This document shows positions 7,583 through 9,237 of a DNA stretch of 64,000 bases, piece by piece. Below the pieces are notes generated by a model. It saw nothing but the letters and a program-made list of their open reading frames with translations. It did not search any database and was not told the origin of the DNA. The position numbers and the translations under genes are program-made. This stretch comes from Shigella phage phi25-307. Within the stretch, counting starts at the first letter, position 1. The number at the start of each line of letters is the position of its first letter. The DNA is taken from sequence record MG589383; one strand, written 5' to 3'.

Positions 7583-7954
7583 TTATTTGATTTTTGTCCA
7601 CTTAGCTGAATCAATAACACCTTTTGCTTTAATCTTCTCGATTAATGACTCTGCACGATTTCTAGCATTTTCGTACCATACAACATCTTCAGAGTAACCA
7701 GTCTCTTCATCTTCGTAAGTTTTAGAACGAATACAACCATAAACTGTAGAATTCAGACGGTAAATTTCACCAGTGAAAAAGTTTTCGATTTCGATATGAT
7801 AACAAAAATCGTCTGAAGGGCCATCAGGAGTTGTACAATAAACTACATCACCTTGAACCGAACGAACCATCCACTGTAACTCGTTAACAACTTGAGATTT
7901 ATATCCATCATGGTCACGGCATTTAATTGTAGCATTTAAATTGATAGTGTTCAT
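7583..7954 (-). CDS. Hypothetical protein, 123 aa
   Basis: ORF downstream of the promoter at 7996-8024. Confidence 0.6.
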   Translation of the reverse strand: MNTINLNATIKCRDHDGYKSQVVNELQWMVRSVQGDVVYCTTPDGPSDDFCYHIEIENFFTGEIYRLNSTVYGCIRSKTYEDEETGYSEDVVWYENARNRAESLIEKIKAKGVIDSAKWTKIK

Positions 7955-7995: not shown

Positions 7996-8024
7996 ATAGT
8001 AACACATCCTACAGGAGAGTAAAC
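7996..8024 (-). promoter_or_regulatory. Early promoter (GTTTAC, 17-nt spacer, TACTAT)
   Basis: Minus strand GTTTACTCTCCTGTAGGATGTGTTACTATAGAC. Confidence 0.5.
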
Positions 8025-8054
8025 ATCTTTTTTAAACTTTTTCTGCCCTAAACG

Positions 8055-8079
8055 CACAAAAGGGAGACCGAAGTCTCCC
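8055..8079 (-). terminator. Intrinsic terminator (GGGAGAC-UUCG-GUCUCCC plus UUUUGUG)
   Basis: Hairpin at 8062-8079, identical in sequence to the one at 23041-23058; lies just after the stop of ORF 8085..8264. Confidence 0.65.
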
Positions 8080-8084
8080 TAAAA

Positions 8085-8264
8085 TTATGCAACAACCTTT
8101 CCAAAACGAGAAGCATCATCTCGAAGAACTGCACGTGCTCTGCGCATGATCTTCTCAACGGTTTGATTAATACGAGAGTTCGACCCACGCTTGTATCCAG
8201 CGCGTTTAGAGGTACCATCAACTTTCTTTTCAACTGCTTTCTTTGCTTTAGCTTGTTTTGCCAT
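8085..8264 (-). CDS. Small basic Lys/Arg-rich protein, 59 aa (below the ORF-track size cut-off)
   Basis: Hand translation MAKQAKAKKAVEKKVDGTSKRAGYKRGSNSRINQTVEKIMRRARAVLRDDASRFGKVVA; ATG preceded by AAAGAGAA; stop is followed directly by the terminator. Preferred over track ORF 8048..8233, which is in another frame. Confidence 0.45.
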   Translation of the reverse strand: MAKQAKAKKAVEKKVDGTSKRAGYKRGSNSRINQTVEKIMRRARAVLRDDASRFGKVVA

Positions 8265-8531
8265 TATAAATTCTCTTTAAATGAAAATGCAGGACTTATT
8301 GTCATTGCCTGCTCAAGCCCTCAAGGGGAATATAGGTTTTGGATATTTAACGACAGGATAACCATAAACCCGTCATCATACCGACCACGACTTAGACAGA
8401 TAACCTTTTTCTGACGCGTGATAGTACAAAATACATTCAAGAGGTACACCGTAAAATTGTCGGGGCGGTACTTCAAAACATACCGATTCGCAAATCGATA
8501 ATCAGACAATTCGACGGCTCCTCGATTTAAC

Positions 8532-8780
8532 TTACTTCAGGGTAATAACAAAATGACGAACTGCTTTACGTGCTGCAGAAGCCAGAGGCTTAGCATATTT
8601 CAATTCATCTTTCTGGACCAGGATATCGCGAAGATCGGCTTGTGCTGGATTCAGATGTTTGAAATACTGTAAGATTTCAAGAGCTTCAGCTTCAACATCA
8701 ATAGATGCGCCGTAATTGTCATGGCCATTATTCCATGCATGGCGTTGCAGTTCAAGAGCGTGTTGTAATTGTTTAGTCAT
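8532..8780 (-). CDS. rIII: rIII lysis-inhibition accessory protein, 82 aa
   Basis: Same length as T4 rIII; sequence (QLQHALELQR...WNNGH.NYGASIDVEAEALEIL.YFKHLNPAQ) matches remembered T4 rIII; located upstream of gene 31 as in T4. Confidence 0.8.
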   Translation of the reverse strand: MTKQLQHALELQRHAWNNGHDNYGASIDVEAEALEILQYFKHLNPAQADLRDILVQKDELKYAKPLASAARKAVRHFVITLK

Positions 8781-8904: not shown

Positions 8905-9237
8905 TCACTTATAAAGACACGGAATAGCTTTATAGTGGCATGTTACGAATTTCTGTTTAATTTCTTTAGGTTGTTTAAGTCCCAAAGCCACAAATGGATG
9001 CGGAACGTTTCGAATTTGACCAACTGGCAGAGAAGTCAAATCACCAACTTCAACAAAACCTTCAGGAACATCAGGACCTACAGAATGAACTACACATAGT
9101 TCAGGAACTTCACCTTGAACACGTTTACCAATCACAAGTCCTGATTCGGTAACTTCTTCATCACCTGCTTGAGCGGGTTCAGAAACCAGAATGACATATT
9201 CACCAACAGCACGAATTGGGAGTTGTACTTCAGACAT
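8905..9237 (-). CDS. 31: Co-chaperonin gp31 (GroES analogue), 110 aa
   Basis: Near-identical in remembered sequence to T4 gp31 ([34 protein letters not shown]...[11 protein letters not shown]). Confidence 0.9.

What the first reader, a model, noticed from the sequence alone, without database searches (positions are those of the whole stretch)
8085..8264. Small lysine/arginine-rich protein in a different frame from the ORF-track call
The track lists ORF 8048..8233, but a 59-aa frame (8085..8264) has a better SD (AAAGAGAA), a highly basic composition, and ends exactly at a UUCG hairpin terminator. It may be a small nucleic-acid-binding protein.
Basis: seen in the sequence. Interest (0 to 1): 0.3.

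Follow-up and report, generated by a model that had tools for sequence, protein, structure and literature searches.

The report
Known T4-family small basic gene 30.9

Summary
The window is an RB69-like Mosigvirus (T4 family). The ORF at 8085..8264 lies on the minus strand. Its 59-aa product is identical to RB69 gp30.9 (T4 gene 30.9, also called 31.-2; PHROG 1427). It sits in the conserved order 31 – rIII – 30.9 – 30.8.

Comparison with about 50 related loci settles the frame question:
- Substitutions concentrate at third codon positions, and dN/dS is 0.13–0.6.
- The conserved start is MAKQ.
- The rival ORF 8048..8233 has no homologues and is broken by stops in 39 of 50 relatives.

The UUCG hairpin begins 4 nt after the stop codon. 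A hairpin plus U-run is kept in 49 of 50 relatives, with stems of different but still complementary sequence. An early-type promoter for 30.8 follows it, a known "PeSL" arrangement.

The protein is 6.6 kDa, pI 11.4, net charge +13. It has a predicted disordered Lys/Ala N-terminus, a near-invariant SKRAGYKRxSNxR motif and an amphipathic C-terminal helix. It matches no Pfam, NCBIfam, PADLOC, PDB or Foldseek entry.

Published T4 data class its transcript as early and its knock-down as having no fitness cost. Binding to nucleic acid or the ribosome is plausible but untested.

Verdict: already known, low interest. A covarying 137-nt RNA-like element upstream of 30.9 in relatives, absent from this window, deserves a separate look.

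The parts
8085..8264 (-). CDS of gp30.9 (59 aa, 6.56 kDa, pI 11.35). Predicted regions: residues 1-18 Lys/Ala-rich and disordered; 19-33 near-invariant SKRAGYKRxSNxR[IV][ND]; 30-54 amphipathic helix.
   Evidence: The ORF is listed. It is 100% identical to RB69 gp30.9 AAP76119. It matches PHROG 1427 at E = 2.4e-31. Codon-position bias and dN/dS of 0.13-0.6 support the frame. The AF2 model is and the composition.
8271..8278 (-). Ribosome-binding region AAAGAGAA, with a GAG core at 8275..8273 and 8 nt between the core and the ATG.
   Evidence: Read directly from the sequence. The same TIR is kept in T4, T6 and RB69-type relatives.
8061..8080 (-). Intrinsic-terminator-type hairpin AGGGAGAC-UUCG-GUCUCCCU, starting 4 nt after the stop codon.
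   Evidence: Fold. 49 of 50 related loci have an 8-13 bp perfect stem plus a U-run 3-11 nt after the stop. The stems differ in sequence but stay complementary (GGGAGAC, GGGACUC(C), GGGAACC, GGGGCUCC, and an unrelated 13-bp stem in L012).
8050..8060 (-). U-rich tail of the terminator (UUUGUGCGUUU). It is interrupted, so it is weaker than the U5-8 run in most relatives.
   Evidence: The generic scan did not call a terminator here.
7996..8023 (-). T4-early-type promoter for gene 30.8: TTTACT-N16-TACTAT, preceded by an A-rich stretch. Together with the hairpin it forms a 'PeSL' terminator/promoter cassette.
   Evidence: Read from the sequence. It matches the T4/PST PeSL consensus TTTACW-N17-TAYWAT of PMC4122927, with a 16-nt spacer instead of 17. 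Relatives show GTTTAC(A) after the hairpin. It was not called by the 9-of-12 scan, so this is an inference.
8265..8531 (-). 267-nt non-coding spacer between rIII and 30.9, which probably serves as the 5' leader of 30.9. Its nucleotide sequence is at least as conserved as the flanking genes. The motif CCCCUUGAGGGCUUG (8328..8314) is kept across six genera.
   Evidence: Alignments. Identity to T6 is 92% and to JS98 86%, against 78-92% for the flanking CDSs. Single-base indels shift every frame between close relatives. There is no Rfam hit. Folding is not better than shuffles.
8482..8499 (-). Hairpin AUCGAUU-UGCG-AAUCGGU about 33 nt after the rIII stop, followed by UAUGUUUUG. This is a possible weak terminator or processing hairpin between rIII and 30.9.
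   Evidence: Read from the sequence. T6, T4 and JS98 carry UAAUGAUU-UGCG-AAUCAUUA, with C-G changed to U-A and U-G changed to A-U.
8048..8233 (-). The ORF-track call (61 aa, TTG start, +1 frame). It is a spurious overlapping ORF that runs through the terminator hairpin.
   Evidence: It matches no PHROG or Pfam family. Its TTG start is TAG in the closest relative DCP548. The frame carries stop codons, at the start position or internally, within the 30.9 span in 39 of 50 related loci.
8532..8780 (-). Upstream neighbour rIII (lysis-inhibition accessory protein, 82 aa).
   Evidence: PHROG 1457 at E = 8e-42, plus the RB69 annotation.
7583..7954 (-). Downstream neighbour gp30.8 (123 aa).
   Evidence: Pfam PF06019 Phage_30_8 at E = 1.3e-74, plus the RB69 annotation.

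Best explanation
SHOWN. 8264..8085 (minus strand) is the orthologue of bacteriophage T4 gene 30.9 (old name 31.-2) in an RB69-like Mosigvirus genome. It is a genuine gene under purifying selection. It starts at the conserved MAKQ methionine and is the last cistron before a conserved UUCG-type intrinsic terminator. That terminator is followed at once by an early-type promoter for 30.8, forming a PeSL cassette. The overlapping ORF 8048..8233 is an artefact.

FROM PUBLISHED T4 DATA. The 30.9 transcript belongs to the early class. Knock-down of 30.9 has no measurable fitness cost on a laboratory host.

INFERRED (about 0.4-0.5). The product is a small accessory host-takeover or regulatory factor that docks on a polyanionic target. 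The near-invariant SKRAGYKRxSNxR motif and the Arg-rich face of the C-terminal amphipathic helix would make specific contacts. The floppy Lys/Ala N-terminus would add non-specific electrostatic affinity. RNA or the ribosome is favoured slightly over DNA, for three reasons: early timing, the Arg-rich-motif-like helix, and the neighbourhood of rIII, whose product binds ribosomal protein S1.

Confidence in the identity and architecture is at least 0.95. The single figure given below is for that part.
For: Identity:
- The surrounding DNA is 98% identical to phage DCP548 and 95% to RB69.
- The protein is 100% identical to RB69 gp30.9.
- It matches PHROG 1427 at E = 2.4e-31.
- T4 AF158101.6 annotates the same 58-aa frame.

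Selection:
- Variable alignment columns by codon position are 20/18/37, and 36/32/53 over 38 distinct CDSs.
- dN/dS is 0.13-0.61.
- The gene is found in 1005 phage records, and 165 protein clusters are all small phage proteins.

Synteny: the order cd-31-(rIII)-30.9-30.8...30 holds even in distant relatives.

Terminator. PeSL consensus: PMC4122927.

Expression and dispensability:
- The transcript is classed 'early' in PMC9697503, supplement 4.
- CRISPRi-ART gives a score of 0.04, p = 0.26, 'Not Fit' (PMC11879866, supplement 15).
- An in vivo expression study exists (Driukas & Nivinskas 2003), cited in PMC9409239.

Protein features:
- pI 11.35 and net charge +13.
- In the AF2 model, helix 30-54 has pLDDT 82-88 and the N-terminus has low confidence.
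- The helix is amphipathic: muH is 0.59, against 0.26 for shuffles, with 1.2% of shuffles reaching that value.
- The motif residues are invariant across the family.
Against: Nothing argues against the gene call.

Against the mechanism:
- No recognised nucleic-acid-binding domain was found in Pfam or NCBIfam.
- There is no significant PDB sequence match; the best is SlmA at E = 0.12.
- There is no Foldseek match.
- Overall model confidence is only pLDDT 66.
- The protein is missing from the T4 LC-MS list in PMC9697503, as far as that file is held. This shows neither presence nor absence, because tryptic peptides of so K/R-rich a protein are very short.
- A strictly conserved Gly/Tyr-containing motif could equally be a short linear motif that binds an acidic protein surface.
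- Dispensability in the laboratory gives no phenotype to reason from.
Confidence: 0.9

Rival explanations
1. gp30.9 acts by protein-protein contact. The invariant SKRAGYKRxSNxR stretch would be a short linear motif, and the helix a docking element, for an acidic host protein such as a protease, chaperone, RNase, RNA polymerase subunit, or a defence or division protein. It would not act as a nucleic-acid binder.
For: The motif is conserved far more strictly than generic charge would need, including Gly23, Tyr24 and Asn29. There is no nucleic-acid-binding fold. Being dispensable on a laboratory strain is consistent with a host-specific accessory role. There is a sub-threshold resemblance of RINQTVEKIMRRARAVLRD to a SlmA helix (RINQLFERIEAQLRQVLRE, E = 0.12-0.5).
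Against: A net charge of +13 and a Lys/Ala tail are typical of polyanion binders. There is no PADLOC match. The SlmA match is not significant and covers one helix only.
Confidence: 0.3
2. gp30.9 is a DNA-binding, nucleoid-directed or bZIP-like dimeric protein. A basic segment would lie directly N-terminal to a helix with hydrophobic residues spaced 3-4 apart (I32, V36, I39, A43, V46), which would dimerise.
For: The order basic-segment-then-amphipathic-helix, and the hydrophobic spacing read from the sequence and the model. The AKxAKAKKA tail resembles Lys/Ala-rich DNA-binding tails (my own knowledge, not tested).
Against: Gly23 and Gly27 interrupt the basic segment, and the model does not make it helical. 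There is no bZIP, HU or histone-like family match. The putative zipper has only about three heptads, with Ala and Asp at core positions. Oligomeric state could not be modelled with these tools.
Confidence: 0.15
3. The ORF-track call 8048..8233 (61 aa, TTG start) is the real gene, or a second overlapping gene.
For: It is an open frame of similar length in the window and in RB69 and T4-type relatives.
Against: It has no family match. Its start codon is TAG in the 98%-identical phage DCP548 and TAA in many others. The frame carries stop codons within the 30.9 span in 39 of 50 relatives. Substitutions fall on what would be its first and second codon positions. It also reads through the terminator hairpin.
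Confidence: 0.01
4. The true product is the longer N-terminally extended protein: 97 aa in the old T4 UniProt entry, and 68-102 aa in some GenBank records.
For: Such extensions are annotated in T4-type and Klebsiella phages.
Against: In the window an in-frame TAA lies four codons upstream of the ATG. The extensions are unrelated in sequence and length, and single-base indels shift them between close relatives. The current T4 record uses the short form. All family members share the MAKQ/MAK start.
Confidence: 0.02

Closest known systems
Bacteriophage T4 gp30.9 (gene 30.9 = 31.-2; UniProt P17310) and RB69 gp30.9 (AAP76119); PHROG 1427
   Same: The sequence is 100% identical to the RB69 protein and 96% identical to the T4-type protein. 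Length, MAKQ start, position between rIII and 30.8, and the following UUCG terminator are all the same.
   Different: Nothing of substance differs. The C-terminus is GKVVA here and in RB69, against GKQKA in T4. The terminator stem differs in sequence but stays complementary (GGGAGAC against GGACUCC).
PeSL (promoter-early stem-loop) terminator/promoter cassettes of T4-like phages (Arbiol 2010, PMC2839356; Comeau 2014, PMC4122927)
   Same: A GC-rich stem-loop with a U-run is followed within about 40 nt by TTTACT-N16-TACTAT, which fits TTTACW-N17-TAYWAT. It sits at a boundary between small accessory genes.
   Different: The spacer is 16 nt rather than 17. Neither promoter activity nor termination was measured here.
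Arginine-rich-motif RNA-binding peptides and small phage translational regulators (lambda N, T4 RegA), and the ribosome-binding early protein PhiKZ014 (PMC10914614)
   Same: All are small, basic, early phage proteins. Like these, gp30.9 is partly disordered and has an Arg-rich helix. The precedent that early phage proteins bind ribosomes comes from PMC10914614.
   Different: There is no sequence or fold relationship, and no binding data for gp30.9. This is a functional analogy only.
Small basic bacterial ribosomal proteins (for example bL32, whose N-terminus ...SKRGMRRSH... resembles SKRAGYKRGSN; recalled from memory)
   Same: Size is about 57-59 aa, pI is extreme, and there is a similar short basic motif.
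   Different: Pfam gave no match even at E <= 0.1. The exhaustive HMM search of 1.84 billion representatives returned only phage-type small proteins and one spurious repeat protein. gp30.9 is therefore not a member.

Membership tests
T4 gp30.9 family (PHROG 1427) | Significant full-length match to the family profile | tested here: met
   phrog_1427 at E = 2.4e-31, residues 1-57. Profile searches return only this family.
T4 gp30.9 family (PHROG 1427) | Orthology to the annotated T4/RB69 gene 30.9 | tested here: met
   100% identical to RB69 AAP76119. T4 AF158101.6 annotates 30.9 at 130364..130540, 58 aa.
T4 gp30.9 family (PHROG 1427) | Conserved position in the cd-31-rIII-30.9-30.8-...-30 module | tested here: met
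   The window order is 31, rIII, 30.9, 30.8. The same order holds in T6, JS98, Klebsiella, Salmonella and Enterobacter phages and in metagenomic relatives.
T4 gp30.9 family (PHROG 1427) | Family signature SKRAGYKRxSNxR[IV] followed by an amphipathic helix | tested here: met
   Alignments A1, A2 and A5, plus the model.
Protein-coding gene (as opposed to a chance ORF) | Excess of synonymous or third-position change and a frame kept open in relatives | tested here: met
   Variable columns by codon position are 36/32/53. dN/dS is 0.13-0.61. The frame is open in all 50 loci.
Rho-independent (intrinsic) terminator | GC-rich stem-loop followed at once by a U-run | tested here: inconclusive
   The 8-bp stem with a UUCG loop is stable, but the U-run is UUUU(G)UGCGUUU and the generic scan did not call it. 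Relatives have U5-8 runs.
Rho-independent (intrinsic) terminator | Structure rather than sequence conserved (stems of different sequence remain complementary) | tested here: met
   More than 20 distinct arm/loop combinations were found. All are perfectly paired, in 49 of 50 loci.
Rho-independent (intrinsic) terminator | Transcripts actually end there | not testable with these tools
   This needs 3'-end mapping (Term-seq) of infected cells.
Known nucleic-acid-binding protein families | Match to a recognised DNA- or RNA-binding domain or solved structure | tested here: not met
   Pfam gave no hit. NCBIfam gave only a sub-threshold YbaK hit. The best PDB profile hit was SlmA at E = 0.12. Foldseek against PDB and BFVD gave nothing.
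Known nucleic-acid-binding protein families | Strongly basic, partly disordered composition | tested here: met
   pI 11.35, net +13, 30.5% K+R, top-ranked of 235 ORFs. The N-terminus has low confidence in the model.
Known nucleic-acid-binding protein families | Demonstrated binding to DNA, RNA or ribosomes | not testable with these tools
   No data were found in the searchable literature.
Anti-defence or defence-associated proteins (PADLOC) | Match to a defence-system model | tested here: not met
   No family matched at E <= 10.
PeSL cassette | Stem-loop followed by TTTACW-N17-TAYWAT | tested here: met
   Hairpin at 8080..8061, then TTTACT (8023..8018), N16, TACTAT (8001..7996). The consensus is from PMC4122927. 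The spacer is one base shorter than the consensus.

The most novel reading that the evidence does not exclude
gp30.9 is a so far unrecognised early host-takeover factor. It would bind the host translation apparatus or RNA (ribosome, rRNA or mRNA) through its invariant SKRAGYKRxSNxR motif. It might work with its neighbour RIII, which binds ribosomal protein S1 and curbs RegB. Its long conserved leader, which in many relatives carries a covarying 137-nt RNA element, would be a regulatory RNA controlling it.
Probability: 0.15. Interest if true: 0.5.

Novelty: already known. Interest (0 to 1): 0.15.

Why it matters
For this scan the value is mainly quality control. It shows that the ORF track mis-called a frame where the public annotation of T4 and RB69 has long had the right one.

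Biologically, gp30.9 is one of the many small, conserved, dispensable T4-family proteins with no known function. It is kept in over a thousand phage genomes under purifying selection, with a near-invariant 13-residue basic motif, so it almost certainly has a specific target.

Finding that target would add a piece to how T4-type phages take over their host. Nothing here makes that question newly tractable beyond pointing to the motif, the predicted helix and the odd conserved leader.

Tried and rejected
- **Family and structure searches.** Pfam, NCBIfam and PADLOC scans gave no meaningful hit. The PDB profile search gave only a one-helix resemblance to SlmA at E = 0.12-6.5. I reject it as evidence because it is below significance and covers a single amphipathic helix. 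Foldseek of the AF2 model against PDB and BFVD gave nothing, and the model confidence is only 66.
- **Exhaustive HMM search of 1.84 billion representatives.** It returned only small phage proteins, plus one 617-aa repetitive protein (P0067) that I judge a spurious low-complexity match.
- **SD-sequestering hairpin.** I suspected a pyrimidine tract pairing with the purine SD, with matching changes between lineages. The pairing probability of the SD is no higher than with shuffled upstream sequence (fraction of shuffles reaching the observed value 0.19-0.70), so I dropped the idea.
- **Conserved 5'-leader hairpins.** The leader from -95 to -18 folds no better than shuffles in the window (z = +0.36), and the whole spacer has z = -0.81. 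The apparent compensating stems lie in segments that cannot be aligned, so they do not count as covariation.
- **62-aa ORF 8321..8509 in the spacer.** It has a GAGGAG 8 nt before its TTG start but matches no family. In T6 the start is CTG, followed by an in-frame TAA. I reject it as coding.
- **Promoter between rIII and 30.9.** Nothing passed the scan. By eye, GTGTAC-N17-TACTAT (8449..8421) is a weak candidate and is unproven.
- **Rfam.** No credible hit in the region or in the relatives' spacers.
- **Literature.** Searches for a function of 30.9 found only annotation tables and a citation to a 2003 expression study that is not held. The T4 genome review PMC150520 is not held.

Full report
**What the window is.** The 1.9 kb around the finding matches 758 phage records. 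The best are Escherichia phage DCP548 (98.3%) and RB69 (95.3%), both Mosigvirus in the T4 subfamily Tevenvirinae. All genes in this stretch run on the minus strand. The order matches the RB69 annotation: cd, 31.1, 31 (8905..9237), rIII (8532..8780), 30.9, 30.8 (7583..7954), 30.7.

**Checking the observation.**
- The 59-aa ORF exists at 8264..8085 on the minus strand, and the 61-aa ORF-track call at 8233..8048 lies in the +1 frame of the same strand.
- The purine tract AAAGAGAA lies at 8278..8271. Only GAG is truly anti-SD-complementary, with 8 nt between it and the ATG.
- After the TAA stop come four U, then an 8-bp stem AGGGAGAC/GUCUCCCU closed by a UUCG tetraloop (8080..8061), then UUUGUGCGUUU. 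The centroid energy is -14.1 kcal/mol, and z is -3.07 for the 61-nt context.
- A generic terminator scan did not flag the hairpin, presumably because the U-run is interrupted.
- The protein is 6.56 kDa with pI 11.35. It has 10 K and 8 R against 5 acidic residues, and is the most K/R-rich of 235 mechanical ORFs in the window.

**Which frame is real.**
- The 59-aa product hits PHROG 1427 at E = 2.4e-31, while the 61-aa product hits nothing.
- It is identical to RB69 gp30.9 (AAP76119), whose note gives the T4 synonym 31.-2. The current T4 record annotates the same short frame, 58 aa.
- I collected 50 related loci from GenBank phages, IMG/VR and metagenome assemblies.
- In a codon alignment of 38 distinct coding sequences, variable columns number 36, 32 and 53 at codon positions 1, 2 and 3.
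- Pairwise dN/dS against the window is 0.13-0.61.
Its TTG start is TAG in the 98%-identical DCP548 and TAA in many others, and the frame carries stop codons within the 30.9 span in 39 of 50 loci.
- The longer N-terminal extensions seen in some records (97 aa in the old T4 UniProt entry, 68 aa in Klebsiella phages) are unrelated to each other and shifted by single-base indels. In the window an in-frame TAA lies four codons upstream of the ATG. MAKQ is therefore the start.

**Transcription architecture.**
- A perfect 8-13 bp hairpin followed by a U-run sits 3-11 nt after the stop in 49 of 50 loci. The stems have quite different sequences (GGGAGAC, GGGACUC(C), GGGAACC, GGGGCUCC, and an unrelated 13-bp stem in a distant relative), and loops are mostly UUCG. 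This is structural conservation. It marks 30.9 as the last cistron of its unit.
- About 40 nt further on lies TTTACT-N16-TACTAT (8023..7996), preceded by an A-rich tract. This fits the T4-type early promoter of the 'PeSL' terminator/promoter cassettes described for T4-like phages (PMC4122927). It would serve 30.8.
- Upstream, a 267-nt spacer separates rIII from 30.9. It is non-coding, because frames are broken by indels between close relatives. The only sizeable ORF in it (8321..8509) is destroyed in T6.
- Despite being non-coding, the spacer is as conserved as the neighbouring genes or more so: 92% to T6 and 86% to JS98, against 78-92% for the flanking CDSs.
- The spacer contains a hairpin with a UGCG loop just after rIII, with paired changes in T6, T4 and JS98 (8499..8482). 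It also contains a motif CCCCUUGAGGGCUUG (8328..8314) that is kept across six genera.
- No promoter in the spacer passes the scan.
- I tested two ideas about the leader. One was a hairpin hiding the SD, the other a conserved stem-loop upstream of it. Neither beats shuffled controls, so I do not claim them.

**What the protein looks like.**
- Profile searches of 5.8 billion clusters and of 1.84 billion representatives find only small (53-105 aa) phage proteins, from T4-like phages of Escherichia, Klebsiella, Enterobacter, Salmonella, Serratia, Yersinia, Edwardsiella, Aeromonas and a Pseudomonas phage. None has a Pfam domain or a meaningful name.
- Across the family, the N-terminal Lys/Ala stretch varies.
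- The segment S19-K-R-A-G-Y-K-R-x-S-N-x-R-[IV]-[ND] is nearly invariant.
- The following helix keeps its pattern (QLxRxARKAL) rather than its sequence.
- AlphaFold2 with the family alignment gives mean pLDDT 66. Residues 1-29 have low confidence, and helix 30-54 has pLDDT 82-88.
- The helix is amphipathic: muH is 0.59 and only 1.2% of shuffles reach it.
- No solved or predicted structure resembles the model. The only sequence echo in the PDB is one helix of SlmA at E = 0.12, which I treat as chance.

**What is published.**
- Gene 30.9 appears in T4 annotation tables as 'conserved hypothetical'.
- A time-resolved T4 transcriptome classes it as early. UniProt P17310 is absent from that study's LC-MS table between its neighbours (PMC9697503 supplements). 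This is expected for a protein that trypsin cuts into very short peptides.
- Genome-wide dCas13d knock-down scored 30.9 at 0.04 (p = 0.26, 'Not Fit'), meaning it is dispensable on the laboratory host (PMC11879866 supplement 15).
- A 2003 paper on in vivo expression of rIII and 30.9 is cited in PMC9409239 but is not held.
- The same paper shows that RIII, the upstream neighbour, binds ribosomal protein S1 and blocks activation of RegB.

**How it most likely works.**
- Shown: a real, conserved, early, non-essential gene with its own terminator.
- Inferred: a 6.6-kDa protein with net charge +13, a disordered Lys/Ala tail, a strictly conserved basic motif and an Arg-rich amphipathic helix most plausibly docks on a polyanion.
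- I put about 0.45 on nucleic acid or ribosome, leaning to RNA or ribosome because of early timing and the rIII neighbourhood. I put about 0.3 on an acidic protein partner through the motif, with the rest unknown.
- None of this is tested.

**Comparison and novelty.** This is a member of the gp30.9 family by every criterion I could test: profile match, orthology, synteny and signature. It belongs to no known nucleic-acid-binding, ribosomal-protein or defence family. The finding is therefore a correct re-identification of an already annotated gene. Interest is low.

**Side observations.**
- The most notable is a ~137-nt element in the rIII-30.9 spacer of 21 of 50 related loci and 403 GenBank phages, including JS98, Klebsiella and Enterobacter phages and many Tequatrovirus.
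- It has 32 predicted pairs, of which 11 show changes on both sides that keep the pair, and almost none are broken. It has no Rfam match.
- A covariance model built from it finds nothing in this window.
- Separately, phage phi92, which is not a T4 relative, carries the T4-type spacer and the 30.9 start region. There the start is fused to the last 27 codons of rIII, inside its tRNA cluster.

Noticed in passing
Related loci, e.g. L004:409-545 (Klebsiella phage UTI-K4), L005:420-556 (JS98), L007:433-569. Absent from the window.: A ~137-nt highly conserved element lies between rIII and 30.9, 78-190 nt upstream of the 30.9 ATG. It occurs in 21 of 50 fetched loci and in 403 GenBank phage records, one copy each and mostly unannotated. 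RNAalifold gives 32 pairs, 11 with changes on both sides that keep the pair and almost none broken. The G-U pairs fit the gene strand. There is no Rfam hit at E <= 1. A covariance model finds nothing in this window (best E = 1.5). It is a candidate unnamed structured RNA.
   Followed up: partly
window 8265-8531 (minus strand); motif at 8314-8328: The rIII-30.9 spacer is non-coding, because indels shift every frame. Yet it is 92% identical to T6 and 86% to JS98, which is as conserved as the flanking genes or more so. The motif CCCCUUGAGGGCUUG is kept in six genera whose spacers are otherwise dissimilar. Folding energy is not better than shuffles, so its role (promoter, processing site or leader) is unexplained.
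   Followed up: partly
L054:1400-1800 (Escherichia phage phi92, NC_023693.1, about 53.4-53.8 kb): phi92 is not a T4 relative (Stephanstirmvirinae). Inside its tRNA gene cluster it carries a near-identical copy of the T4-type rIII-30.9 spacer. There the 30.9 SD and ATG are fused to the last 27 codons of rIII (annotated gp113, 42 aa), and TTTATTGGAGA is repeated at both ends. It looks like a recent, permuted capture of T4 DNA.
   Followed up: partly
window 7996-8080 (minus strand): The 30.9 terminator hairpin plus TTTACT-N16-TACTAT forms a PeSL-type terminator/early-promoter cassette ahead of 30.8. The SD of 30.8 is GGAG, which is the RegB cleavage motif.
   Followed up: partly
GenBank records AV112, AV113, AV116, PHB12, pEK20, KMB40 and others (hits H2-H4, H22, H26, H31, H39, H48); UniProt entry for Klebsiella phage PMBT63 (P0017): The 59-68-aa gp30.9 homologue is annotated as '1,4-alpha-glucan (glycogen) branching enzyme, GH-13-type' in several phage records. 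This is an evident annotation-pipeline error that has propagated. The old T4 UniProt entry lists a 97-aa, 11.1-kDa form whose N-terminal extension is not conserved.
   Followed up: yes
window 8321-8509 (minus strand): A 62-aa ORF in the spacer has a TTG start 8 nt after GAGGAG. It has no family match. In T6 the start is CTG and an in-frame TAA follows, so it is not a conserved gene.
   Followed up: yes
window 8163-8414 (plus strand): An 83-aa ORF antisense to 30.9 is open in close relatives but broken in Salmonella STP4-a, Enterobacter AS6 and Pseudomonas PspYZU05. It is most likely a by-product of the codon composition of 30.9.
   Followed up: partly
L008:656-934 (Pseudomonas phage PspYZU05): The most distant named homologue is 92 aa. 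It keeps the SKRAGYKRKSNSRIDQ core and adds a second Lys/Ala/Pro-rich tail at the C-terminus. It lacks the terminator hairpin, and the next gene overlaps its stop. This variant may help define the minimal functional core.
   Followed up: no
window 8421-8449 (minus strand): GTGTAC-N17-TACTAT lies inside the spacer. T6 has TTTACG-N17-(TGT)TACTAT at the same place. This is a weak candidate promoter for 30.9 that falls below the scan threshold and is untested.
   Followed up: no
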